DNA of 64,000 nucleotides from an uncultured Mycoplasmatota bacterium (GCA_947571135.1 CANOWY010000005.1:479-64478); one strand, 5' to 3'; shown: positions 43,548 through 63,416, numbered from the stretch's first letter. Notes: generated from the letters alone by a model not told the origin. Program-made: numbers and translations.

Positions 43548-43624
43548 GGCGGAATTGGTGAAGTGGTTAACACGCCGGATTGTGGCTCCGGTATGCATGG
43601 GTTCGATCCCCATATTTCGCCCCA
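43548..43624 (+). tRNA. tRNA-His (GTG) with G-1 and encoded CCA
   Basis: Extra 5' G pairing with discriminator C, anticodon loop TTGTGGC, T-arm ATGGGTTCGATCCCCAT. Confidence 0.85.
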
Positions 43625-44398: not shown

Positions 44399-44545
44399 TA
44401 GTGCTGTTTTTAAACTATTAAACAAAAAAATTAAAATTTGTTTTTTTCCTTTATTCATAAGGGGTAAATAGTTATTTTTAGATATAATTTTCAAATTGTG
44501 TGTGCGATTAAGATAGAAGTGTGACAAAGGAGAAAAAATCGCACA

Positions 44546-45585
44546 GTGTAGGTTTGTCAAACCCAACCAACAAAATTTTTGGAAAGGATTGATAAACTGT
44601 GAGTAAATCAAAAATTACTCAGCAAATGAGATACCGAGAGTCTCTCATTAAATACGCCGATCAACATGGCGTATCAAAAGCGTCTCGTGTTTATAACACA
44701 AATAGACAATATATCTATCGTTGGAAGAATCGATACGATGGTAATATTCGTTCTCTGGAAAATAAGAGTAAAAGACCGAAAAGTCATCCGAATCAACATA
44801 CCCAAGATGAGATAAAACTCATCAAAGATATGTTTAAGAAAAATAAGGATACAGGTTTAGTTGTTCTTTGGGTGAAATTAAAACAAAAAGGATATACAAG
44901 AAGTTGTTCTTCTCTGTATCATCAATTAAAAAAACTAGAACTTAAATTTAATACCCCAAAGAAAAAGAAGAAACGAAAGTCTAAACCTTATGTACAGATG
45001 ACTTTTCCTGGAGAACGAATACAGATAGATGTGAAAACCGTTCCTACAAGATGTATAGTAGGTCAGTTCAAATTGTACCAATATACAGCAATCGACGAAT
45101 TCAGTCGGGTTCGTTATCTAAAAATTTATGGAGAAAAATCTACTTATACTTCTTACAAATTCTTGCAAGAAGTCATAAAAAGATTTCCTTTTAAAATTTA
45201 TACGATAAGAACAGATAATGGTCCTGAATTCACCAAAAGATTGCTAAGTAAAGATCCAAATGATAAGACAATATTTGAACATGGCCTAGAAAAAGCAGGT
45301 ATCCATCATGACATCATTAAACCTTACACCCCTAAACACAATGGTAAGGTAGAACGAAGTCATAGAAAGGATAATGAACGTTTTTATTTGTCTCATCGCT
45401 TTTATTCCTTAGAAGATGCCAATAAACAGTTGCAAGTTTATTTAAATCAATATAATAATTTTCCCATGCAACCTTTAAATTGGAAATCTCCTAAGGAATG
45501 GCTTCGTGATTATTTTAATAACTTAAAATAATCTTATCGTTGGTTTGTCGTTACCTTTGTAACTTTTGTTTGACAAACCTACATT
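44546..45585 (+). mobile_element. IS481-like insertion sequence with perfect 16-bp terminal inverted repeats TGTAGGTTTGTCAAAC
   Basis: IRL 44546-44561, IRR 45570-45585 (exact reverse complement); single DDE transposase inside. Confidence 0.75.
44599..45531 (+). CDS. DDE transposase (rve integrase-core, IS481-like)
   Basis: N-terminal HTH, TDNGPEF and PYTPKHNGKVERSHR motifs. Confidence 0.85.
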   Translation: MSKSKITQQMRYRESLIKYADQHGVSKASRVYNTNRQYIYRWKNRYDGNIRSLENKSKRPKSHPNQHTQDEIKLIKDMFKKNKDTGLVVLWVKLKQKGYTRSCSSLYHQLKKLELKFNTPKKKKKRKSKPYVQMTFPGERIQIDVKTVPTRCIVGQFKLYQYTAIDEFSRVRYLKIYGEKSTYTSYKFLQEVIKRFPFKIYTIRTDNGPEFTKRLLSKDPNDKTIFEHGLEKAGIHHDIIKPYTPKHNGKVERSHRKDNERFYLSHRFYSLEDANKQLQVYLNQYNNFPMQPLNWKSPKEWLRDYFNNLK

Positions 45586-45743
45586 TTTAGATATAATTTT
45601 CAAATTGTGTCCGTTGCATGTCCTAAAAAAATGTGGTATTATGGTAATATACGAAAATTCTAGATAATCGTATATTTGAATTATTTTGAAGTTCTTAACA
45701 CAAGGGAAATTCTTCCTTGTTTTTTTGTCGTTAAAAATTATAG

Positions 45744-47495
<1,752 letters not shown>

Positions 47496-50477: not shown

Positions 50478-50672
50478 ATGGAAATGAAAGAAATAATAAC
50501 ATTTATCTGTACTATATTATCTGCTTTATTTGCGGGAGCGAGTTTTACTTTTTATAAAAAAAATTTAAAGATAAGTGGAGATTATAAAGAAACAAAAAAT
50601 AAATATAAGAATATAAATCAACAATCTGGTAAAGATGGAAAAAATATTATTGGGGATAATAACAAATTTTAG
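50478..50672 (+). CDS. Small single-TM protein
   Basis: N-terminal TM ITFICTILSALFAGASFTFY; RBS AGGAGG. Confidence 0.4.
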   Translation: MEMKEIITFICTILSALFAGASFTFYKKNLKISGDYKETKNKYKNINQQSGKDGKNIIGDNNKF

Positions 50673-50683
50673 GGGGAATTGTA

Positions 50684-51208
50684 GTGGGAGATGCAGTAAA
50701 ACAAATAACTGGTGATGGTGGAATAAATATTGATGGAAATAATAATACTCTTAATTTATATAAGCAACCTATAAAATATGATTTATTATCTAAACTATGT
50801 AAAGATTTAATAGATAGTGATTTAAACTTCAATGAAGATATGAATATAAATGAGTTACCAGTAGAATTGCTAGAAAAAATAGAATATAACCATTTAACTG
50901 CTCATAAAGAATTATATGAGGAATTTGGAATGTATTTTTTAGATATAGATGGAGTAGTAAAAAAATCTTTGGGTGATAATTCTATAAAATTAGTTCGAAT
51001 TATTAAAACTTTATATCTTGAAATTTTGGCTAATGACCCTAATCAAACTGCGGATCAAATATTGTTTAATATTGAAAATAAATTAATGAATTATACAAGT
51101 TTAATTGATTCAACAGAATATTTAAATGAAGATGTTAGATATTCTATAAGTCAAATTGTATTGTATGTTTTTGAAAAATGTCAGATTCTAAAAAAACCAA
51201 AAAAATAA
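50684..51208 (+). CDS. Hypothetical protein (candidate effector/partner of downstream ABC ATPase)
   Basis: GTG start with RBS GGGGGAA. Confidence 0.35.
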   Translation: MGDAVKQITGDGGINIDGNNNTLNLYKQPIKYDLLSKLCKDLIDSDLNFNEDMNINELPVELLEKIEYNHLTAHKELYEEFGMYFLDIDGVVKKSLGDNSIKLVRIIKTLYLEILANDPNQTADQILFNIENKLMNYTSLIDSTEYLNEDVRYSISQIVLYVFEKCQILKKPKK

Positions 51209-51224
51209 AAAGAAAGGTGGAAGT

Positions 51225-51452
51225 GTGATGCAACTAATTAATAAGAATATTAGTCCAGATAAGACAATATATTATATATCAGTTATTATATATAAAGAAT
51301 TAAAGGAAGCCACCTACTCTGTAAAAAAATTATATGAAAATTTGGAAGAAAAAAGCGAAGATATTGATTACAGCAGTTATCTGTATGCTTTAAACTTTTT
51401 ATATTTAATAGAAAAAATTACTTTAGACAAGGATGTGATTAAATTATGTTAA
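51225..51452 (+). CDS. Small helical protein (candidate middle component)
   Basis: RBS AAAGGTGG; 7-nt overlap with downstream ATPase. Confidence 0.4.
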   Translation: MMQLINKNISPDKTIYYISVIIYKELKEATYSVKKLYENLEEKSEDIDYSSYLYALNFLYLIEKITLDKDVIKLC

Positions 51453-53128
51453 TTGAAAGATTAGTTATTAAGGAATCATTTCCAAGTGAAAGTATAATAC
51501 GTGATATAAAATTTAATTTGGATGGTTTAAATTTAATTGTAGATGAAGGAAATAGAAAAAGAGGAAATGGAGTTGGCAAAACAACTTTTTTAAGACTAAT
51601 AGATATTGCCTTTGGCGCTAAAGATCGTAAAGCATTATATGTTGATCCAGAAACATCTTCCATAAATGAGAAGTTAAAAAATTATATTGAAACATCTAAG
51701 GTATTCATAGAGTTATCAATAATTAATCAATCGACAAATATAAAAACATTGTTGATGGTAGAATTATTTCCAAGCGGAATTAGAAAAATTAATAATGAGA
51801 AATATAATTATAATGAATACAAAGAAAAATTAAATGAAATTGTTTTTGGAAATGCAGATAAGGTTCCAACCTTTCGTAATCTCATTGGTAAATTTATCAG
51901 AGTAAATATGAATGGCGATAATAATAGTTTCTTATATTTTAATAGCGATCATTGCTCAAATGCAGAATATCAAAATATCTATAACTATCTTTTTAAATTT
52001 AAAAATTCAGAGATTGAAAACATTATTTTATCTTTGAGAGAAAAAATTTCTGATTTAGAAAAACAATATAAAATGGTAAAAACAAGTTTAAAATATGATA
52101 GTATAGGTCAAATTGATGCAAAAATAAACATTATTGAAACTAAAGTGAAGGAATTAGAAAATAAACAAAAAACGTATATTGATGAGAAAATTGTTTTAGA
52201 TGAAAAAAAGATAATGGAGAATAGAAAAGAATATTCCTTATTAAATCGTGAATGTGAAAAATTATTATTTGATATTAAAATATTAGAAGATAATATAAAA
52301 AAAGAATCATCTACTCGACAAAATATTGATGAAAAAGCTTTAAAGAATTTCTATGATGATGTTCAATTAAATATTTCTGCTTTAAGCAAAACATTTGCAG
52401 AATTAGTTGCTTTTAATAATCAATTGAACCAAAATCAGATAGATACTTATAATAAAATGCTAAAGGCTAAAAAACAAAAGTTAGATGAAATTAATATAAA
52501 AAAAGACAGATTTTATAATGATAACAAAGGTTATATGTTTTTGGTTGAAAATGGTAGTTTAGAGGAATATCTTAATTTACAAGAAAATTTAAGCAATTAT
52601 CAAACCGGATTAGGTGAATGCTATAATGCTAGAGATATATATGATGATTATGATCGAAAAATTTCTAATGCTCAGATAGAACTAAATGAGCAAGTAGAAA
52701 AAAATAAAATTAATCAAGTTGATGAAAATTTAAATAAATTTAATACAATATTTACAAACTTTTCAAAGAAAACTGTAGATGCAGAATATTTCTTGTATTA
52801 TAATGAATCTGGATTTCCTTTATCAATTTCAAATGTAGATGGAAGCTTTAGTACAGGAACAAGAAAGACTGCTATTATAGCGTTTGATTTAGCGTATTTA
52901 AAATATTCAAGAGATTTAAAAATTAAGTGCCCTAAATTTGTTATTCATGATGTTTTAGAAAACATCCATCAAAATGATTTTTATCAAACTATTGATCTTA
53001 TTAAAAATCAAAAATTTCAATATATTGCTGCTATTTTAAAACAAAGTATTGATATGCACGATAATATCGATAAAGATAAAGATATTATTTTAACTCTTTC
53101 AGAAGATGAAAAACTTTTTCTAATTTAA
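51446..53128 (+). CDS. SMC/Rad50-like ABC ATPase with central coiled coil (DUF2326/Lamassu LmuB/ABC-3C-like)
   Basis: N-terminal Walker A GNGVGKTTFLRLIDIAFG, long coiled coil, C-terminal Walker B/D-loop AIIAFDLAYL and H-loop FVIHDVLENIH. Confidence 0.65.
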   Translation: MLIERLVIKESFPSESIIRDIKFNLDGLNLIVDEGNRKRGNGVGKTTFLRLIDIAFGAKDRKALYVDPETSSINEKLKNYIETSKVFIELSIINQSTNIKTLLMVELFPSGIRKINNEKYNYNEYKEKLNEIVFGNADKVPTFRNLIGKFIRVNMNGDNNSFLYFNSDHCSNAEYQNIYNYLFKFKNSEIENIILSLREKISDLEKQYKMVKTSLKYDSIGQIDAKINIIETKVKELENKQKTYIDEKIVLDEKKIMENRKEYSLLNRECEKLLFDIKILEDNIKKESSTRQNIDEKALKNFYDDVQLNISALSKTFAELVAFNNQLNQNQIDTYNKMLKAKKQKLDEINIKKDRFYNDNKGYMFLVENGSLEEYLNLQENLSNYQTGLGECYNARDIYDDYDRKISNAQIELNEQVEKNKINQVDENLNKFNTIFTNFSKKTVDAEYFLYYNESGFPLSISNVDGSFSTGTRKTAIIAFDLAYLKYSRDLKIKCPKFVIHDVLENIHQNDFYQTIDLIKNQKFQYIAAILKQSIDMHDNIDKDKDIILTLSEDEKLFLI

Positions 53129-53908: not shown

Positions 53909-54057
53909 ACGTTTCTACCTCATGAAAATAATAACATAAAAGTTGTATAGTATGCCACTAAATTTTACATAATAAAATGAGAAAATTGGTTTAGTGAATG
54001 GATATGAGAAGAAAGTATAACTTAAAAATAGATATAAAAAAGAATATTTGTCAAAAT

Positions 54058-54267
54058 ATGAAAATCGCTAGAAAATTAAGTGGTTACAGTGTAGATGAGG
54101 CTTCTGAACTATTGGATATAACAAATGAGCATTTAAAAAGAATAGAAGCGCCGAATGTTCCAAATTATATTTCGTTTGAATTACTTTATATTGCTATGGG
54201 TGTGTATAAGAAAGATGCAAATTTTTTCTTTAATAGCCCTAGTGAAAATGAAAAACTTTTAAAATAA
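54058..54267 (+). CDS. XRE-family HTH regulator
   Basis: MKIARKLSGYSVDEASELLDITNEHLKRIE HTH. Confidence 0.5.
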   Translation: MKIARKLSGYSVDEASELLDITNEHLKRIEAPNVPNYISFELLYIAMGVYKKDANFFFNSPSENEKLLK

Positions 54268-54356
54268 AATAGATGTTAAAAATTTCCATAGCAAAATAGC
54301 GAACAAAGGTTTGATTTTGTTTAAAGTTTAAGTTATACTATTCTTGGTGAAGTGTT

Positions 54357-55571
54357 ATGGAATTAAAAGATAAGTTGAAAATTCTTGCAGATAGCGCTAA
54401 ATATGACGCTTCTTGTTCTTCTAGTGGAAGTACAAGGAAAAATAAAAGTGGTTTTGGTAATGTTGCTTTTTCTGGAATTTGTCATTCTTTTGCTTCAGAT
54501 GGAAGATGTATTTCTCTTTTAAAAATTCTTATGACTAATTGTTGTATTTTTGATTGTAAATACTGTTTGAATCGAAAAAGTAATGATATACAAAGGGCAA
54601 TTTTTACTCCTGAAGAAGTGTGTCAAATCACAATGAATTTTTACAGAAGAAATTATATAGAAGGATTATTTTTAAGTTCGGGGATAATAAAAAGTCCTGA
54701 TTATACAATGGAACTTTTAATTCAAACCATTTCTCTTTTACGTAAAAAGTATCATTTTGGGGGATATATTCATGCAAAAGCCATTCCAGGAGCAAGTGAA
54801 AAATTATTAAAAGATTTAGGACTTTTGGTGGATAGGTTGAGTGCTAATGTAGAATTGCCTACCGAAAATGGTTTAAAACTTTTAGCACCAAATAAAAAAG
54901 AAAGTAATGTTTCTAAAATCATGCATTATGTAAATACAAATCAATCTAAAAAATATGTACCTGCTGGACAGAGTACGCAAATGATTATTGGAGCAACCAA
55001 AGAAAGTGATTTAGAAATTATGGAAAAGAGTGCAAATCTATATAGCAACTACCAATTAAAAAGAGTTTTTTATTCTGCTTATATTCCAGTAAATCAAGAT
55101 TCTTTACTTCCTACTTTAGAACATCCTCCCTTAAAGAGAGAAAATCGTCTTTATCAAGCCGACTGGTTGCTTCGTTTTTATAATTTTAAAGTGAAAGACT
55201 TATTAGATGAGAAGAATCCTAATTTTAATATTTTAATTGATCCCAAAGCCGATTGGGCTTTACGCCATTTGAATGAATTTCCAAAAGAAATTAGTAAATG
55301 CTCTTATTATGATTTATTAAAAATTCCTGGTATTGGTGTAAAATCTGCTAAAAGAATTTTATCTTCTCGTCGTGTGTTTAAAATTTCTTTTGAGGACTTA
55401 AAAAAAATGGGTGTTGTTTTAAAAAGAGCCAAGTATTTCATAACTTGCAATGGAAAATATTTTATGAATTACGCTTTTTTTCAAAAGGAATTTATTGAGA
55501 GAAATTTAGTATTAGAAGAAAAAATACCTTTAAATAAAATACATGAACAATTGAGGTTTTTTAATGAATAA
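54357..55571 (+). CDS. Radical-SAM protein with C-terminal helix-hairpin-helix (putative DNA modification/repair rSAM, TIGR03916-like)
   Basis: CIFDCKYC (Cx3Cx2C) cluster, C-terminal LLKIPGIGVKSAKRIL HhH. Confidence 0.8.
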   Translation: MELKDKLKILADSAKYDASCSSSGSTRKNKSGFGNVAFSGICHSFASDGRCISLLKILMTNCCIFDCKYCLNRKSNDIQRAIFTPEEVCQITMNFYRRNYIEGLFLSSGIIKSPDYTMELLIQTISLLRKKYHFGGYIHAKAIPGASEKLLKDLGLLVDRLSANVELPTENGLKLLAPNKKESNVSKIMHYVNTNQSKKYVPAGQSTQMIIGATKESDLEIMEKSANLYSNYQLKRVFYSAYIPVNQDSLLPTLEHPPLKRENRLYQADWLLRFYNFKVKDLLDEKNPNFNILIDPKADWALRHLNEFPKEISKCSYYDLLKIPGIGVKSAKRILSSRRVFKISFEDLKKMGVVLKRAKYFITCNGKYFMNYAFFQKEFIERNLVLEEKIPLNKIHEQLRFFNE

Positions 55572-56313
55572 TGGTTGTTTTATTTATGAGGATACTTTTG
55601 TACATCTTTTGAATTTGATTTTTTATTTAATTCAAAATCATCTAAAGCCCGAGAACATTAAAAATACGATGTATACTCCTAATTTACTCGATCATGTCAT
55701 TGTTTTAAAGATAGAAAAGAATCCAGAAATTATTAGTAAAATTATCACAAGTATGGGCAGTTTTACGTTTCGATCTATTTATTATGTTTTTTTATCCGAT
55801 GTTGATAACAAAGAACTTATTATTTATTATTTGCTTTTAAATGGAGTGAAGTACAAGGAAAAAGTTTTATACCATCGTAATTTAAAGTGTGTTGAAAAAA
55901 CAATAAATATTTCACGTTATGTCCTTCATGAAGTACATAAATATAAAGGATTTCTACGTTTTAAAGAATTAGAAAATCATATTTTATATGCGGAAATAGA
56001 ACCAGAAAATGATATTTTATTTATGGTTTCTCATCATTTTCAAAGAAGACTAAAAAATGAATATTGGATTATTAAAGATGTCAAAAGAAAAATAGTAAGT
56101 ATTTATGATAAGAAAAAATATTATTTAGTTTCAGAGGAAAATTTTAGTTTAGAAACAACAAAATTAAGCCAAAAGGAGATAGAAATGGGAGAGTTGTGGA
56201 AAACTTTTTACAAAACGATTGGGATTAAGGAAAGAAAAAATGACCGTTGTCGAATGAATTTTATGCCGAAGAAATATTGGAAATATATGGTTGAAATGGA
56301 GGATATTTTATGA
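55564..56313 (+). CDS. DUF4130/TIGR03915-like partner of DNA-modification radical-SAM protein
   Basis: 8-nt overlap with rSAM gene; size and composition typical of the conserved partner. Confidence 0.6.
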   Translation: MNNGCFIYEDTFVHLLNLIFYLIQNHLKPENIKNTMYTPNLLDHVIVLKIEKNPEIISKIITSMGSFTFRSIYYVFLSDVDNKELIIYYLLLNGVKYKEKVLYHRNLKCVEKTINISRYVLHEVHKYKGFLRFKELENHILYAEIEPENDILFMVSHHFQRRLKNEYWIIKDVKRKIVSIYDKKKYYLVSEENFSLETTKLSQKEIEMGELWKTFYKTIGIKERKNDRCRMNFMPKKYWKYMVEMEDIL

Positions 56314-57863
56314 AAAAAGTAGTAAGTGGCAAAGAATTACGAGAAAAAATGAAGGAAAGTATAAATTATTTATGTGATATTGTTAGTAATACTTTAGGAC
56401 CAAAAGGAAGTAATGTGATTATTGATCATTCTCTATTTAGTCCTTTTATTACAAACGATGGAGCGACTATTGCGAAAAATATAGAAAGTGAAGATGAAGT
56501 GGTCAATACCATTTTGGAAATTGCAAAAGAAGCCTCTTTAAAAACAAATGTAATTGTTGGAGATGGAACTACAACCACTTTAGTTCTTTTAGAGAGTATT
56601 TTTAATTCAAGTTTGCAATCTATAGAAGATGGGAAGAATCCTATGGTTTTGAAAAGGGAATTAGATGTTTGTTTAGATTTTGTTTTAAAAAATTTAGAGA
56701 AAGAAAAAAGAATACCCAATAAAGAGGATTTTTTCCGTATTGCTTCCATTGCTGCCAATGATGAAAATTTGGGAAAATTAGCGAGTGAGGCTTTTTTAGT
56801 TGTCAAAAATAAAAATGCTATTACCATAGAAGAAATAGAAGAAAATAAATTGAATATTCAGTTTATTAACGGATATAACATTGATACGCAACTTGCAAGT
56901 GATTATTTTTTAAAAGAACAGAAGAGTATAAATTTTTTGCAAGCGAGTGTTTTGATTATTCATGATTATATGAATAGTTTAGAAAATATTGGCTTTGTTT
57001 TAAATGATTGTATGCAAACAAAGAAAAGTTTAATCATTTTTGCAAATGAATATGACGAAAATGTTATAAGAGAAATTGTTTCATTAACTTTGGAGGGTGA
57101 ACTGCATTGTTGTGTTTTAAAATTATCTGAATATGGTATGCACCAAAGAAAGTTAGAAAAAGATTTAGAAGTTCTTACTCATGCAAAAATTATTGAAAAT
57201 TACGAGTATATAACACCAGAAAATATTGGTTTTGCTAAAAATATTTTGGTTACTAATGATTCTGTTCGATTGGATTTTATAAAAGATAGTAATATAAAAA
57301 AATATATATCTTTATTAGAAAGCGAAAGTAAAGAATGTAAAGAGGAATATGAAAAAAATTTTTATCAAAAAAGATTGGCTATGTTTCAGACAGGTCTTGC
57401 AAAAATTGAAATAGGAGCCCCAACGAAAACGGAATGTCATGAAAAGAAAATGCGTTTGGAAGACGCTCTTTGTGCTTTAGAAAGTTGTAAACAGGGGGTT
57501 ATTTTGGGAGGTGGAGTAACACTTTTAAAAATTGCTTCTGACTTAGAAGAACAGTCGGACGTTTCTGGTATTTTTAAAAATGCTTTGAAAGAACCTTTTG
57601 CTAAAATCCTAAGTAATGCAGGTCTTGATTTTTCTTCTATTCAAGAAGATATAAAACAAGCAAATTATCAAAAAATATATAATGTAAAAAAGGAACAATT
57701 AGAAGACATTCAAGATACTTTTGTTTTGGATTCTTTAAAGGTAGTTGCCTCTTCTTTAATAAATGCAACTTCTATTGCTACCATGCTTCTTACTACGACA
57801 AGTTTAGTTATTAATGAATATCAAAATAACATGAGTAAATCAAATGAATATACAGAGATTTAA
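56310..57863 (+). CDS. Divergent GroEL/Cpn60-family chaperonin-like ATPase (no GGM tail)
   Basis: TLGPKGSNVI, ITNDGATIAK, GDGTTTTLVL, RLEDALCAL, VILGGGVTLL match GroEL equatorial/ATP motifs; ATG overlaps upstream stop (ATGA). Confidence 0.8.
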   Translation: MKKVVSGKELREKMKESINYLCDIVSNTLGPKGSNVIIDHSLFSPFITNDGATIAKNIESEDEVVNTILEIAKEASLKTNVIVGDGTTTTLVLLESIFNSSLQSIEDGKNPMVLKRELDVCLDFVLKNLEKEKRIPNKEDFFRIASIAANDENLGKLASEAFLVVKNKNAITIEEIEENKLNIQFINGYNIDTQLASDYFLKEQKSINFLQASVLIIHDYMNSLENIGFVLNDCMQTKKSLIIFANEYDENVIREIVSLTLEGELHCCVLKLSEYGMHQRKLEKDLEVLTHAKIIENYEYITPENIGFAKNILVTNDSVRLDFIKDSNIKKYISLLESESKECKEEYEKNFYQKRLAMFQTGLAKIEIGAPTKTECHEKKMRLEDALCALESCKQGVILGGGVTLLKIASDLEEQSDVSGIFKNALKEPFAKILSNAGLDFSSIQEDIKQANYQKIYNVKKEQLEDIQDTFVLDSLKVVASSLINATSIATMLLTTTSLVINEYQNNMSKSNEYTEI

Positions 57864-57999: not shown

Positions 58000-58872
58000 A
58001 TGAATGTCAATTTTATTAATAATGTGTTTACCAAAGATGGTTTAAAACTACCAATGGTGCATTTTGAAAGTGAAGCAAAGGACCTATGTGTTATTTGTAT
58101 TCATGGTATGTGTGGAACAATAATTGATAATTATTTTGCAACTGTATGGGGTAAATTTTTAGCAGAAAAAAATATTGGTTTTCTTTATGAGCACAATCGA
58201 GGTCATTCTATTGAAAATGATATTGTAATGAAAGATAGTTCTTTTAAAAGATGTGGGTGTATGTATGAAATTTTTGAAGATTGTTTGCTTGATATTGATT
58301 TAGCAATAGAAACTGCTAGAGAGTTAGGATATAAGAAAATTATTTTACTTGGACACAGTTTTGGGTGTAATAAAGTAATTTATTATTACTATAAAAGGAA
58401 GCCTGATATTTTAGGAATAGTATTAGCAAGTGCTCCCGATATGGTCGGAATCCATATTTCTGTTCAACCAGATTATAAAGAATTACTTAAAGAAGCAAAA
58501 GAAAACATTGATAACAATAAATCAACAAAACTACTACATAAAATGATTGAAGATGATTATATGTATATGAGTTCTGGAACTTATTATAATTGGTATAATG
58601 AAAATTCTATGCTCAATAATTTGCCTGTTATTTCTAATCCAAAACACTGGGAACAATTTGAAAGTATTGATGTACCTATTTTTTCTTTTTCTGGTGGAGA
58701 TGAAGAAGAGTATTATAAACAATTTGAATTGTTAAAAAGGAAAGCCATTTCTTGTCCAACTTTTGAATATAAAATTATACAAAGTACAGGTCATACTTAT
58801 AATTTTAAAGAAAAAGAGATTGGTTCTTTAATTTATAATTGGATTAAGAAAAATTTTATTGATAAGCCATAA
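58000..58872 (+). CDS. Alpha/beta-hydrolase fold protein
   Basis: Nucleophile elbow LLGHSFGCN, C-terminal STGHTY. Confidence 0.6.
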   Translation: MNVNFINNVFTKDGLKLPMVHFESEAKDLCVICIHGMCGTIIDNYFATVWGKFLAEKNIGFLYEHNRGHSIENDIVMKDSSFKRCGCMYEIFEDCLLDIDLAIETARELGYKKIILLGHSFGCNKVIYYYYKRKPDILGIVLASAPDMVGIHISVQPDYKELLKEAKENIDNNKSTKLLHKMIEDDYMYMSSGTYYNWYNENSMLNNLPVISNPKHWEQFESIDVPIFSFSGGDEEEYYKQFELLKRKAISCPTFEYKIIQSTGHTYNFKEKEIGSLIYNWIKKNFIDKP

Positions 58873-59775: not shown

Positions 59776-60483
59776 ATGATTGATTTTTATGAGTTATTAG
59801 GAATTAAAAAAAGTTCTTCTAAAGAAGAGATAAAAGAAGCGTATCGAAAAATGGTAAAAAAATACCATCCAGATGTGAATAAAAGTGAGGAAGCCAATAA
59901 AATAATTATTAGTTTAAATGAAGCAAAAGAAGTACTTTTAGATGATGAAAAGAGAGTTCATTATGACGAGATGTTAAATTCGATAGAACGTTCTAAACAA
60001 TTTTCGAATGATAAAAAGGAAACTTATAGTGAAAAAACAAGAGAATATAAAGAAACATATGCAGACGTTTATGTTACGAAATGGGAGTTTTTTTTCAATT
60101 ATTTAAAAAATGGGCTTGATAGTGTTTTGAAAAAATATATTAAATCTGTTTTGATCTGTTTTAATTTGTTTGTCTTTACTTGTTTAAAAGGAATTGGGTT
60201 TGGAATTATTTTTTTGCTTACACTTCTTAGTGGTTTAATTGATTACGTCGCTGGTTTTTTTATGATTATGGCTATTTTGTCTTTATTTGTTTTGGCAGGG
60301 CAGACTGGTCTTGATTATATTCCTTTTGTTCCTGCGAATGTAGAGAGTTTTATGTTAATGTCGATAGTTGCTATGGTTATTGAAATGCTAAAAGTATTTA
60401 TTGTTAAGAAATCCTATAATTTATTTGCGATTTTACAAAATATAGAAGATAAGATTTTTATATTTATTTTAATGAAGTTATAA
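59776..60483 (+). CDS. J-domain (DnaJ-like) membrane protein
   Basis: DFYELLGIKKSSSKEEIKEAYRKMVKKYHPDVN with HPD; 3-4 C-terminal TM helices. Confidence 0.7.
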   Translation: MIDFYELLGIKKSSSKEEIKEAYRKMVKKYHPDVNKSEEANKIIISLNEAKEVLLDDEKRVHYDEMLNSIERSKQFSNDKKETYSEKTREYKETYADVYVTKWEFFFNYLKNGLDSVLKKYIKSVLICFNLFVFTCLKGIGFGIIFLLTLLSGLIDYVAGFFMIMAILSLFVLAGQTGLDYIPFVPANVESFMLMSIVAMVIEMLKVFIVKKSYNLFAILQNIEDKIFIFILMKL

Positions 60484-62003: not shown

Positions 62004-63416
62004 ATGAACCATTTAAAAAAATATAATGAAAAAAGAAATTTTAATAAAACAAAAGAACCGATCGGAAAGATAGAAACTTCTCCTAATAAGTTAAGATTTT
62101 GCGTGCAACACCATATGGCAAGACGAGAACACTACGATTTTCGACTTGAATGGAAGGGAACTTTAAAAAGTTGGGCAGTACCCAAAGGACCATCTTATAA
62201 TACGATGGACAAGCGCCTTGCTGTTGAAGTAGAAGACCATCCTTTGTCTTATCGTAATTTTGAAGGAACTATTCCAAAAGGAGAATATGGTGGAGGAATA
62301 GTTATGTTATGGGATGAAGGTTTTTGGGAACCCCTTGGAAATCCAACAAAAGACTTTCAAAATGGTTCTATTAAATTTGTCTTATATGGTAGTCGTTTAA
62401 GGGGACGTTGGACCTTAGTTAGATATAAAGAAGATAATTGGTTATTGATTAAAGAAAAAGATAATGTCTTTCTATATAATAATATTGAGGAATACACGAC
62501 GAGTATTAAAACAGGTAGAACGATGGAAGAAATAACAAATGGTACAAAACCAATTCCTAAAAATTCTAAAAAGTTGGGAATTGTAGAGGGTGTGAAAATA
62601 TCAAGTCCAGATAAAGTGATTTTTAAAAATCCGAAAATAACGAAAATGGATATTGTAATGTATTATAAAAAAGTGGCGAAGAGAATGCTTTTTTATACGG
62701 AAAAGAGAATTATAAGTACAATACGTGCTCCAGAGGGTATAAAGGGGGAAATATTTTTTAAGAAACATTTCGAAACCAAAAGTAGTGGATTAGGGAATAT
62801 CACGATTCCAAGTCATAAAGGAAAAAAAGAAGATTATTACTTTTTAAAAGATCTTTCGGGAATTATTAATGAAGTGCAAATGAATAGTTATGAATTTCAT
62901 GTTTGGGGCAGTCGTGTTCCTGCGTATAATAAACCAGATGTTTTGGTATTTGATTTGGATCCCGATAAAGGAATGTCTTTAAAAAAGATTCGTGAAGGAG
63001 TAAAAGATTTAAAAAGTATTTTGGATGAAATTGGGTTGGTTTCCTTTTTGAAAACAAGTGGAGGCAAAGGATACCATGTTGTGGTACCAACACATAAATT
63101 AAAGACATGGGAGAATGCGCGAGATTTTTCTCAAAATATTGCAAAGTTAATGGAAGTTAAATGGCCTGATAAGTATACAAGCAATATAAGAAAAGAAGCA
63201 CGTAAAGGGAAAATTTTTATTGATTGGATTCGTAATACAAAAGGAGCAACAAGTGTTGCACCCTATTCTTTACGTGTTAGAGAAAAATCAAGAATTTCAA
63301 TGCCAATCAAATGGAGTGAACTTGATAAAGTAAAACCAGATGGTATTACGATGGATATGGCGATAAAAAGATTAAAAAGAAAAGATCCTTGGGAAGGATT
63401 TTATGATGTGAATTAA
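62004..63416 (+). CDS. LigD-type 3'-phosphoesterase + primase/polymerase domain protein (no ligase domain)
   Basis: PE domain HYDFRLE...SWAVPKGPS; Pol domain VLVFDLDPD...KTSGGKGYHVVVP. Confidence 0.7.
   Translation: MNHLKKYNEKRNFNKTKEPIGKIETSPNKLRFCVQHHMARREHYDFRLEWKGTLKSWAVPKGPSYNTMDKRLAVEVEDHPLSYRNFEGTIPKGEYGGGIVMLWDEGFWEPLGNPTKDFQNGSIKFVLYGSRLRGRWTLVRYKEDNWLLIKEKDNVFLYNNIEEYTTSIKTGRTMEEITNGTKPIPKNSKKLGIVEGVKISSPDKVIFKNPKITKMDIVMYYKKVAKRMLFYTEKRIISTIRAPEGIKGEIFFKKHFETKSSGLGNITIPSHKGKKEDYYFLKDLSGIINEVQMNSYEFHVWGSRVPAYNKPDVLVFDLDPDKGMSLKKIREGVKDLKSILDEIGLVSFLKTSGGKGYHVVVPTHKLKTWENARDFSQNIAKLMEVKWPDKYTSNIRKEARKGKIFIDWIRNTKGATSVAPYSLRVREKSRISMPIKWSELDKVKPDGITMDMAIKRLKRKDPWEGFYDVN

What the first reader, a model, noticed from the sequence alone, without database searches (positions are those of the whole stretch)
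54357..57863. Translationally coupled radical-SAM / DUF4130 / divergent GroEL-like chaperonin operon on a mobile region
The radical-SAM gene (Cx3Cx2C cluster, C-terminal HhH) and its small partner look like the conserved putative DNA modification/repair radical-SAM plus DUF4130 pair. Here a full-length but divergent Cpn60/GroEL homolog is fused into the same operon: its start overlaps the partner's stop by 4 nt (ATGA) and the partner overlaps the radical-SAM gene by 8 nt. The GroEL ATP-binding and hydrolysis motifs are retained (GDGTTT, EDAL, GGGV), but the GGM tail is absent and no groES lies adjacent. The operon sits beside an XRE regulator within an integrase/IS-rich region, not at the housekeeping groESL locus. 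I do not know of a described three-gene module that couples a dedicated chaperonin to a DNA-acting radical-SAM enzyme; it could be a new defence or DNA-modification system.
Basis: partly seen in the sequence, partly recalled or inferred. Interest (0 to 1): 0.8.

Follow-up and report, generated by a model that had tools for sequence, protein, structure and literature searches.

The report
Radical-SAM repair operon with private chaperonin
A group of uncultured gut bacteria has welded a fast-evolving, GroES-less copy of the GroEL chaperonin onto a widespread but uncharacterised two-gene radical-SAM "DNA repair" operon, giving a rare case of a chaperonin that looks dedicated to one enzyme.

Summary
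Three translationally coupled genes sit at 54357-57863: a TIGR03916 radical-SAM protein, a TIGR03915/DUF4130 partner and a full-length but divergent group I chaperonin.

Near-identical strains lack the neighbouring ABC-3C island, and their homology to the window starts at 54263. So the 89-aa HTH gene belongs to the island, while the triad and its promoter lie outside it.

The triad is a clade-wide core operon. The same order and abutting genes occur in every related locus that could be read (about 90; one has a truncated rSAM gene), and at least 591 species-level gut "Tenericutes/Bacilli" MAGs carry the chaperonin. None was found in phage, plasmid or defence-system collections.

All 72 promoters read carry a palindrome, C[A/G]AAC-N4-GTTT[G/A], over the -35 box. 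It resembles the Firmicutes LexA box. NHEJ genes are the commonest neighbours.

The chaperonin keeps every ATP-site residue and the GroEL fold (TM 0.90). Its apical groove is remodelled, the GGM tail is replaced, no GroES gene lies nearby, and it evolves faster than its partners.

Best reading: a DNA-damage-responsive radical-SAM module with a dedicated chaperonin. Whether a canonical groESL coexists in these genomes could not be tested. New variant of a known kind.

The parts
54278..54288 (+). Conserved upstream element AAAAATTTCCA (family form AAAAATTnCCA); function unknown
   Evidence: It lies 10-11 nt 5' of the operator in 31 of 70 distinct triad promoters. Window sequence read.
54300..54313 (.). 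Operator-like palindrome CGAACAAAGGTTTG (family consensus CAAACAAATGTTTG); resembles the Firmicutes LexA box GAAC-N4-GTTC
   Evidence: Found in 72 of 72 promoters within 2 mismatches of C[AG]AAC-N4-GTTTG; 71 lie 55-59 nt before the rSAM ATG and one at -39. It is the only site of at least 14 bits in the 64-kb window. About 70 of 74 such sites in 986 kb of related DNA lie at triad promoters.
54311..54339 (+). Promoter: -35 TTGATT, 17-nt spacer, -10 TATACT; the -35 box overlaps the right half of the palindrome
   Evidence: Consensus scan. A TAYAMT -10-like box occurs in 70 of 70 distinct promoters at the same place.
54346..54350 (+). Ribosome-binding site GGTGA
   Evidence: GGTG lies 6-14 nt before the ATG in 70 of 70 distinct promoters.
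54357..55571 (+). Radical-SAM protein, TIGR03916 family (Cx3Cx2C at residues 63-70, C-terminal helix-hairpin-helix)
   Evidence: TIGR03916 616.7 bits against a cut-off of 343.5. Radical_SAM, Fer4_12 and HHH Pfam hits. 70-87% identical across related loci.
55564..56313 (+). DUF4130 / TIGR03915 partner protein, without a UDG domain
   Evidence: TIGR03915 218.7 bits against 112.25, covering residues 6-245 of 249. PF13566 153.7 bits. It overlaps the rSAM gene by 8 nt.
56310..57863 (+). Divergent group I chaperonin (Cpn60/GroEL-like), 517 aa, with a conserved INEYxNNxNKxNEYxE tail in place of the GGM tail
   Evidence: PF00118 168 bits; TIGR02348 334 against a cut-off of 582; NF009487 361 against 352. 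AF2 model pLDDT 89.9, TM 0.90 to GroES-bound GroEL/Hsp60 subunits. ATP-site residues invariant in 48 homologues. ATGA overlap with the DUF4130 gene.

Best explanation
This is a chromosomal, vertically inherited three-gene operon of a large clade of uncultured, AT-rich gut bacteria. Depositors label them Tenericutes, Bacilli or Mycoplasma sp.; they are probably GTDB order RF39, which is my inference from memory.

The first two genes are the widespread TIGR03916 radical-SAM / TIGR03915 (DUF4130) pair. Its chemistry is unknown. It is predicted to form a heterodimer acting on single-stranded nucleic acid, and in other phyla it belongs to the DNA-damage regulon.

In this clade the pair has acquired a third, translationally coupled gene: a GroEL paralogue. 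It keeps an intact ATPase site and the full three-domain fold. Its apical GroES/substrate groove is remodelled, the R197-E386 and inter-ring contact residues are changed, and the GGM tail is replaced by a conserved acidic-aromatic tail.

Proposed working. A repressor sits on the palindrome over the -35 box; it is most likely LexA-like, because the site is a one- to two-base variant of GAAC-N4-GTTC. DNA damage lifts repression. The three proteins are then made in fixed proportion by coupled translation. The chaperonin, acting without GroES, uses ATP to fold, assemble or hold the Fe-S radical-SAM/DUF4130 complex as its dedicated client.

Shown: the gene anatomy, family membership, clade-wide linkage, conserved operator, conservation of the ATP site and the fold. 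Inferred: the identity of the repressor, damage induction, and the client relationship.
For: Linkage. rSAM-DUF4130-Cpn60 occur in the same order and abutting in all 85 loci first fetched, wherever upstream DNA exists. The same holds for chaperonins only 33-36% identical to the window copy. At least 591 species-level genomes match family-specific peptide patterns. Only these three genes are conserved in the neighbourhood. Gene junctions are -8/-4/-1/0 nt for rSAM-DUF4130 and mostly -4 nt for DUF4130-Cpn60.

Not mobile. The island edge is at 54263. Relatives L004 and L005 carry the triad beside the same chromosomal genes as window 35-43 kb. No family member was found in IMG/VR, phage or plasmid collections.

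Regulation and repair context. The palindrome is present in 72 of 72 promoters and overlaps the -35 box. The Firmicutes LexA motif is GAAC-N4-GTTC, and the TIGR03916/03915 operon is LexA-regulated in Verrucomicrobia (PMC4951493). The pair is also part of the DNA-damage regulon in Acinetobacter (PMC12392091) and is SOS-linked by neighbourhood analysis (PMC3765255). LigD, ATP-dependent ligase and Ku are the most frequent neighbours (15, 8 and 6 loci). In L020 the Ku-ligase-LigD operon diverges from the operator-bearing region. No CIRCE element was found.

Chaperonin. T30, L31, G32, P33, D52, D87-T90, D398, G414, G416, N479 and D495 are invariant in 48 homologues; T91 (44/48) and G415 (35/48) are nearly so. 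L234 is replaced by S/A/G, V264 by S, Y199 by L, R197 by T/I/S and E386 by K. The apical domain is the least conserved and is 21% identical to E. coli GroEL. The fold matches GroEL at TM 0.90. No GroES-like ORF lies within 6 kb in 85 loci.

Rate. In the same genome pairs CysRS is 82% identical, rSAM 81%, DUF4130 61% and Cpn60 57%. That is unlike a generalist GroEL.

An AF3 prediction supports a DUF4130-rSAM heterodimer (bioRxiv 10.64898/2026.08.19.745780).
Against: - No lexA, recA or uvr promoter of this clade could be fetched, so the LexA assignment rests on motif resemblance alone.
- In about 1 Mb of related DNA, essentially no other gene carries the site. That would also fit a dedicated regulator.
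- Many Mollicutes lack LexA (general knowledge).
- The client relationship is inferred only from operon structure. No interaction was modelled or measured.
- Coexistence with a canonical groESL in the same genome was not shown.
- The fast rate may partly reflect a lineage-wide acceleration. GroES-linked GroELs on similarly AT-rich contigs are also divergent (40-44% identical to E. coli) and also lack GGM tails.
- In one MAG (L022) the radical-SAM core is replaced by an unrelated N-terminal part, while DUF4130 and Cpn60 stay intact.
Confidence: 0.5

Rival explanations
1. Stable holoenzyme or reaction chamber. The chaperonin-like ring is not a transient foldase. It is a permanent ATP-driven subunit that encloses or remodels the rSAM/DUF4130 complex, or its nucleic-acid substrate. 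It might shield radical chemistry or load the enzyme onto damaged DNA.
For: Strict 1:1:1 coupled translation holds in every locus. A family-specific C-terminal tail is conserved, and the apical groove is remodelled yet conserved (S at positions 234 and 264). Chaperonin divergence tracks DUF4130 divergence (r 0.73). Precedent from general knowledge: M. tuberculosis GroEL1 has been reported to bind DNA.
Against: No known GroEL homologue is a stoichiometric enzyme subunit. The correlation in divergence is expected from shared phylogeny alone. No DNA-binding motif was seen in the chaperonin. Nothing here separates this reading from a dedicated foldase.
Confidence: 0.2
2. Housekeeping copy. The clade has lost canonical groESL, as many Mollicutes have. 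This gene is then its only, general chaperonin, and it merely resides in the repair operon.
For: The gene is near-universal in the clade: at least 591 species genomes. No second GroEL or GroES lies within 6 kb in 85 loci or in the 64-kb window. NF009487 'chaperonin GroEL' is just passed, at 361 against 352 bits. Loss of GroEL in Mollicutes is documented (general knowledge). My attempts to show a second groEL in the same genomes failed.
Against: - It is never found outside the triad.
- It evolves faster than CysRS, LigD and its own operon partners. Reps are 38.6% identical on average, against 54% among canonical GroELs from several phyla.
- Residues needed for polypeptide and GroES binding in E. 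coli are replaced. V264S and a polar residue at L234 are loss-of-function changes there (Fenton et al. 1994, from memory).
- There is no CIRCE element; the promoter carries a repressor palindrome typical of damage regulons.
- GroES-linked GroELs in housekeeping contexts exist on equally AT-rich contigs.
Confidence: 0.15
3. Anti-phage defence or DNA-modification system carried on a mobile island.
For: In the window it lies next to an ABC-3C-type conflict system, an IS and a serine recombinase. Radical-SAM enzymes do occur in defence systems (general knowledge). An AIPR abortive-infection gene follows the triad in L005.
Against: The island boundary excludes the triad. There are no PADLOC matches. 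No copies were found in 2.9 million viral contigs, 50,697 phage records or 72,556 plasmids. The operon is present with the same promoter in essentially every member of the clade examined, not patchily. Flanks vary and are dominated by housekeeping and NHEJ genes.
Confidence: 0.06

Closest known systems
TIGR03916 / TIGR03915 (DUF4130) 'putative DNA modification/repair radical SAM' gene pair
   Same: Genes 1 and 2 are full-length members, well above the curated cut-offs, and are adjacent and overlapping as in other bacteria. The pair is LexA-regulated in Verrucomicrobia and DNA-damage-regulated in Acinetobacter (PMC4951493, PMC12392091). It is predicted to form a heterodimer (bioRxiv 10.64898/2026.08.19.745780).
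   Different: The pair is described as a two-gene operon, often with a UDG domain fused to the second protein. Here there is no UDG domain, and a chaperonin gene is translationally coupled as a third cistron.
Specialised GroEL paralogues (Chlamydia GroEL2/GroEL3, Mycobacterium GroEL1/Cpn60.1, rhizobial and Myxococcus extra GroELs)
   Same: These are divergent extra copies of a group I chaperonin. They often lack the GGM tail and an adjacent groES, and are thought to serve a narrow client set.
   Different: This protein is not a member of those families: NF038370 and NF038369 score 97 and 82 bits against cut-offs of 600. Those paralogues are not translationally coupled to a candidate client enzyme. 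Coexistence with a housekeeping copy is shown for them but not here.
Phage-encoded GroEL-like chaperonins that work without a co-chaperonin (e.g. Pseudomonas phage EL gp146; general knowledge)
   Same: A GroEL homologue with no GroES partner, a divergent apical domain and presumably few clients.
   Different: No phage or viral-contig member of this family exists in the collections searched; the best matches are 31-33% identical, the level of ordinary GroEL. This family is chromosomal and clade-wide.
GroEL/GroES requirement for UmuC (Pol V) function in the E. coli SOS response (Donnelly and Walker; general knowledge)
   Same: A chaperonin is needed for a damage-induced DNA-transaction enzyme.
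   Different: In E. coli the general GroESL does the job and is not encoded with umuDC. Here a private paralogue is built into the operon.

Membership tests
TIGR03916 radical-SAM (rSAM_link_UDG) | Score above the curated NCBIfam cut-off over the full length | tested here: met
   616.7 bits against 343.5; residues 3-391 match model positions 1-402 of 415.
TIGR03916 radical-SAM (rSAM_link_UDG) | Cx3Cx2C cluster motif and C-terminal helix-hairpin-helix | tested here: met
   CIFDCKYC at residues 63-70. The HHH hits at residues 315-337 are below Pfam gathering scores (19.6 and 18.2 bits). The same architecture is described for the family.
TIGR03916 radical-SAM (rSAM_link_UDG) | Adjacent TIGR03915 partner in the same operon | tested here: met
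   8-nt overlap in the window. Adjacent in all loci that have upstream DNA.
TIGR03916 radical-SAM (rSAM_link_UDG) | Actual radical-SAM chemistry on DNA or RNA | not testable with these tools
   No solved structure or characterised homologue. The function is unknown in the literature.
TIGR03915 / DUF4130 | Score above the curated cut-offs | tested here: met
   TIGR03915 218.7 against 112.25; PF13566 153.7 against 27.
TIGR03915 / DUF4130 | Fused uracil-DNA-glycosylase domain (present in part of the family only) | tested here: not met
   The protein is 249 aa and the model covers residues 6-245, so there is no extra domain. This feature is optional and does not exclude membership.
Group I chaperonin (Cpn60/GroEL superfamily) | Pfam Cpn60_TCP1 over the full length and a three-domain GroEL fold | tested here: met
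   168.2 bits against 34.3, residues 23-500. AF2 pLDDT 89.9; Foldseek TM 0.90 and rmsd 2.6 A to 1aon_A.
Group I chaperonin (Cpn60/GroEL superfamily) | ATP-binding and hydrolysis residues (T30-P33, D52, D87-T91, D398, G414-G416, N479, D495) | tested here: met
   The window protein keeps all of them. Invariant in 48 family members except T91 (44/48), G415 (35/48) and L31 (47/48). K51 is N in all 48.
Canonical housekeeping GroEL (TIGR02348 equivalog) | Score above the equivalog cut-off | tested here: not met
   334 bits against 582.1. Only the subfamily model NF009487 is narrowly passed, at 361.1 against 352.
Canonical housekeeping GroEL (TIGR02348 equivalog) | Adjacent groES (Cpn10) gene | tested here: not met
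   No GroES-like sequence in the window or within 6 kb in 85 loci. The nearest non-triad relatives do follow a Cpn10 gene.
Canonical housekeeping GroEL (TIGR02348 equivalog) | Hydrophobic apical groove (Y199, Y203, F204, L234, L237, L259, V263, V264) and GGM tail | tested here: not met
   Y199 is L, L234 is S/A/G and V264 is S; the others are kept or conservatively replaced. The GGM tail is replaced by INEYxNNxNKxNEYxE.
Canonical housekeeping GroEL (TIGR02348 equivalog) | Heat-shock control (CIRCE/HrcA in Firmicutes) | tested here: not met
   No CIRCE-like sequence in the 300 nt upstream of the operon in any of 72 loci.
Canonical housekeeping GroEL (TIGR02348 equivalog) | Being the only, or the main, chaperonin of the genome | not testable with these tools
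   Whole MAGs cannot be read. Indirect attempts failed.
Anti-phage defence system | Match to known or candidate defence protein models | tested here: not met
   No PADLOC hit for any of the three proteins.
Anti-phage defence system | Location in variable islands or mobile elements with patchy distribution | tested here: not met
   The island edge is at 54263, outside the operon. The triad is present in every related locus and absent from viral, phage and plasmid collections.
SOS (LexA) regulon member | LexA-binding site in the promoter | tested here: inconclusive
   The palindrome C[AG]AAC-N4-GTTT[GA] over the -35 box is present in 72 of 72 promoters. The Firmicutes motif is GAAC-N4-GTTC. No lexA or recA promoter of the clade was available for comparison. 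The metagenome scan for the site was uninformative.

The most novel reading that the evidence does not exclude
A GroEL-type ring that works without GroES has become an obligatory, client-dedicated component of a DNA-damage-inducible radical-SAM nucleic-acid repair machine. It is encoded in the operon and made in fixed stoichiometry with its client. That would be the first bacterial enzyme-specific chaperonin fixed across a whole order-level clade. It may also be the only chaperonin these reduced genomes retain.
Probability: 0.35. Interest if true: 0.75.

Novelty: new variant of a known kind. Interest (0 to 1): 0.6.

Why it matters
The TIGR03916/TIGR03915 pair occurs in roughly a fifth of bacterial genomes (PMC4951493). 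It is damage-regulated in at least two phyla, yet its chemistry is unknown.

A lineage in which the pair has recruited its own chaperonin suggests that the complex is hard to fold or assemble. That may explain why it has resisted biochemistry, and co-expression with this chaperonin offers a practical route to soluble enzyme.

For the chaperonin field it is a natural experiment. It shows what a GroEL looks like after it narrows to one client and drops GroES. The ATP site is frozen. The apical groove, the allosteric salt bridge, the inter-ring contacts and the C-terminal tail are all rewritten.

It also supplies a well-defined operator and promoter for studying damage responses in an abundant but uncultured gut clade.

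Tried and rejected
1. Canonical groESL in the same genomes. I took an AT-rich ordinary GroEL from viral-contig locus L096 as a seed, but it belongs to Clostridium sp. CAG:343. Flanks of the 80 viral-contig GroEL loci share nothing with the clade. The nearest non-triad relatives (P0299, P0303, P0392) are GroES-linked.

2. LexA test. tblastn with B. subtilis LexA (sequence from memory) found nothing in the held loci. A PWM scan found no other regulon member.

3. CIRCE: none found.

4. Defence reading: PADLOC was negative.

5. Phage or plasmid origin: negative.

6. The 89-aa HTH as operon regulator: rejected. It is absent next to the triad in all relatives and in near-identical strains.

7. The alpha/beta hydrolase (58000-58872) and the DnaJ-domain membrane protein (59776-60483) as operon members: rejected, because neither is conserved next to the triad.

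8. PDB relatives of the rSAM and DUF4130 proteins: none.

9. Literature on a chaperonin linked to this pair: none found.


Full report
**1. The observation**

They are the radical-SAM protein at 54357-55571 (404 aa), its partner at 55564-56313 (249 aa) and the chaperonin-like protein at 56310-57863 (517 aa).

The junctions read ATGAATAA (8-nt overlap) and ATGA (4-nt overlap). A GGAGGA lies before the third start.

Curated models confirm the families:
- TIGR03916: 616.7 bits (cut-off 343.5).
- TIGR03915: 218.7 bits (cut-off 112.25); PF13566 DUF4130: 153.7 bits.
- PF00118 Cpn60_TCP1: 168.2 bits.

The chaperonin misses the GroEL equivalog cut-off (334 against 582). It narrowly passes one GroEL subfamily model (361 against 352). 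It scores far below the Chlamydia GroEL2/3 models. It is about 30% identical to E. coli GroEL.

**2. Not on the mobile region**

Upstream of the triad lie tRNA-His (43549), an rve transposase, a serine recombinase and an ABC-3C-type set (CTD10, MC6, a DUF2326/LmuB-like ATPase). An 89-aa HTH gene follows. This stretch has lower G+C.

Metagenome contigs carrying the identical chaperonin come in two forms. L167 matches the window. L166 and L169 are 99.3-99.6% identical from window 54263 onward, but have a NUDIX gene directly upstream instead.

The island therefore ends at about 54262. It includes the HTH gene. The triad promoter and genes lie outside it.

In relatives L004 and L005 the triad lies near the same chromosomal genes (ABC transporter, PadR, HAAS, AAA, DAP_DH_C) that occupy window 35-43 kb.

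**3. A clade-wide, strictly linked module**

A protein search found more than 120 clusters of about 517-aa homologues at 46-99% identity. A scan of one genome per species found at least 591 genomes matching family-specific peptides. The best 80 are all uncultured gut MAGs (mouse, rabbit, goat, human) labelled Tenericutes, Bacilli or Mycoplasma sp..

In all 85 loci first fetched, the rSAM and DUF4130 genes precede the chaperonin gene in the same order and abutting, wherever the contig extends that far. Junctions are -8/-4/-1/0 nt, and mostly -4 nt for the third gene.

An exhaustive search of 1.84 billion cluster representatives gave about 60 representatives of the family. Three of the most distant, at 33-36% identity to the window protein, were looked up. 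All are again preceded by DUF4130, and by the rSAM gene where the contig allows.

The next-best proteins at similar scores (P0299, P0303) instead follow a Cpn10 gene in housekeeping surroundings. Gene context, not score, marks the family boundary. In a neighbour-joining tree all 54 family sequences (53 representatives plus the window protein) group together, and P0307 (at first filed as unclassified, later found in a triad) falls within them.

Clustering of all flanking ORFs shows that only the three genes are conserved. The next most frequent neighbours are LigD phosphoesterase/Prim-Pol (15 loci, including window 62004-63416), an ATP-dependent ligase (8) and Ku (6). Together these are the NHEJ machinery.

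There is one exception to the intact triad. In L022 the radical-SAM core is replaced by an unrelated N-terminal part.

**4. Promoter and operator**

All 70 distinct promoters share a -10 box, a GGTG ribosome-binding site and a 14-bp palindrome. The palindrome is C[A/G]AAC-N4-GTTT[G/A], with consensus CAAACAAATGTTTG. It lies 55-59 nt before the ATG in all but one promoter and overlaps the -35 box. In the window it is CGAACAAAGGTTTG at 54300-54313.

In 986 kb of related DNA, about 70 of 74 strong sites are at triad promoters. The window has only this one.

The site is a one- to two-base variant of the Firmicutes/Actinobacteria LexA box GAAC-N4-GTTC (PMC4951493). The same paper reports LexA control of the TIGR03916/TIGR03915 operon in Verrucomicrobia. 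In Acinetobacter both genes belong to the DdaA damage regulon. Aravind and colleagues linked DUF4130 to SOS-associated neighbourhoods.

In L020 a Ku-ligase-LigD operon is transcribed divergently from the same operator-bearing region. No CIRCE element is present.

I could not obtain lexA or recA promoters of this clade. The LexA assignment therefore remains an inference.

**5. The chaperonin**

The AlphaFold2 model is confident (pLDDT 89.9, pTM 0.82). It superposes on GroES-bound GroEL/Hsp60 subunits at TM 0.90, and only the last 14 residues are disordered.

Conserved features in 48 family members:
- The nucleotide-pocket residues are invariant, apart from T91 (44/48), G415 (35/48) and L31 (47/48).
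- K51 is N in all 48.

Changed features:
- Apical groove: Y199 is L, L234 is S/A/G and V264 is S. From memory of Fenton et al. 1994, V264S and a polar substitution at L234 abolish polypeptide and GroES binding in E. coli.
- The R197-E386 salt-bridge residues become T/I/S and K.
- Inter-ring residues R452, E461, V464 and A109 are not conserved.
- The GGM tail is replaced by a conserved INEYxNNxNKxNEYxE tail.
- The apical domain is the most diverged part: 21% identical to E. coli, against 32% for the equatorial domain.

No GroES-like ORF lies nearby.

The protein evolves faster than everything it was compared with in the same genome pairs. CysRS is 82% identical, rSAM 81%, DUF4130 61% and the chaperonin 57%. 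LigD is 65% against 50% for the chaperonin. The all-loci means are 74.8, 53.2 and 46.5%.

Frozen catalytic residues together with a fast-drifting surface fit a narrow-client chaperonin better than a generalist.

**6. What it most likely is**

It is a damage-responsive radical-SAM/DUF4130 nucleic-acid repair or modification module that has recruited a private, GroES-independent chaperonin in this clade. The chaperonin would fold, assemble or hold the complex (confidence about 0.5).

Rival readings:
- A permanent holoenzyme or chamber role for the ring (0.2).
- The clade's only, general chaperonin that merely sits in the operon (0.15).
- A defence system (0.06). This is disfavoured by negative PADLOC, viral, phage and plasmid searches and by core-like inheritance.

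The main open point is whether a canonical groESL coexists in these genomes. GroES-linked, tail-less GroELs do exist on equally AT-rich contigs. I could not place one in a triad-bearing assembly.

**7. Novelty**

The two-gene pair and its damage regulation are known. Specialised GroEL paralogues are known. I found no description of a chaperonin coupled to this pair.

I rate it a new variant of a known kind, with interest 0.6.

Noticed in passing
window 50478-53128 (with 53998-54267): An ABC-3C-type conflict system: a 64-aa membrane ORF, a CTD10 protein (174 aa), an MC6 protein (75 aa) and a DUF2326/LmuB-like ATPase (560 aa), plus an 89-aa HTH gene. It lies in a low-G+C island that is present in the window and L167 but absent from the 99%-identical strains L166 and L169.
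   Followed up: partly
window 44474-44501 and 45583-45610: A 28-nt perfect direct repeat brackets the rve-family transposase gene (44599-45531), just after tRNA-His (43549-43624) and before a serine recombinase gene (45759-47495).
   Followed up: no
window 54278-54288; same place in 31 of 70 related promoters: A second conserved promoter element, AAAAATTnCCA, lies 10-11 nt upstream of the operator palindrome. In some loci it is part of a GGAAA-N3-TTTCC or TGG-N9-CCA symmetry. Its function is unknown.
   Followed up: partly
L022 3936-5258 (MAG MGBC100111, 638-kb contig): The radical-SAM gene is a chimera. About 340 aa of a membrane/zinc-ribbon protein are fused in frame to the last ~93 aa (helix-hairpin-helix part) of the rSAM. 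The DUF4130 and chaperonin genes downstream are intact. It could be real gene decay or an assembly artefact.
   Followed up: partly
L177 4040-9246 (JGI 3300046467, 64% G+C): P0300 is a 1081-aa protein with two Cpn60 stretches in tandem. Its gene is divergent from a 536-aa Cpn60 gene and lies next to a glycyl-radical enzyme gene (PFL-like plus Gly_radical) and a Rieske protein gene. P0302 (1078 aa) is similar. This is another chaperonin homologue beside a radical enzyme.
   Followed up: no
L174/L179 (P0299), L176 (P0303), L178 (P0392): These are 512-524-aa GroELs without a GGM tail, only 40-44% identical to E. coli GroEL. Each follows a Cpn10 gene on a 27-32% G+C contig. P0299 lies near gidA-gidB-parA-parB. 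They are the closest non-triad relatives of the family and are candidate housekeeping chaperonins of related AT-rich lineages.
   Followed up: partly
L189 2808-4694: An HtpG (HSP90) gene lies directly downstream of the triad chaperonin gene in one distant member of the family.
   Followed up: no
window 59776-60483: A 235-aa protein has an N-terminal DnaJ (J) domain and a hydrophobic C-terminal half. It lies 2 kb downstream of the triad. It is conserved only in near-identical strains and is not linked to the triad elsewhere.
   Followed up: partly
window 21820-29199: A 1318-aa FtsK/SpoIIIE-family ATPase gene is followed by a 1053-aa ORF with no Pfam match. This may be a secretion or DNA-translocation module.
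   Followed up: no
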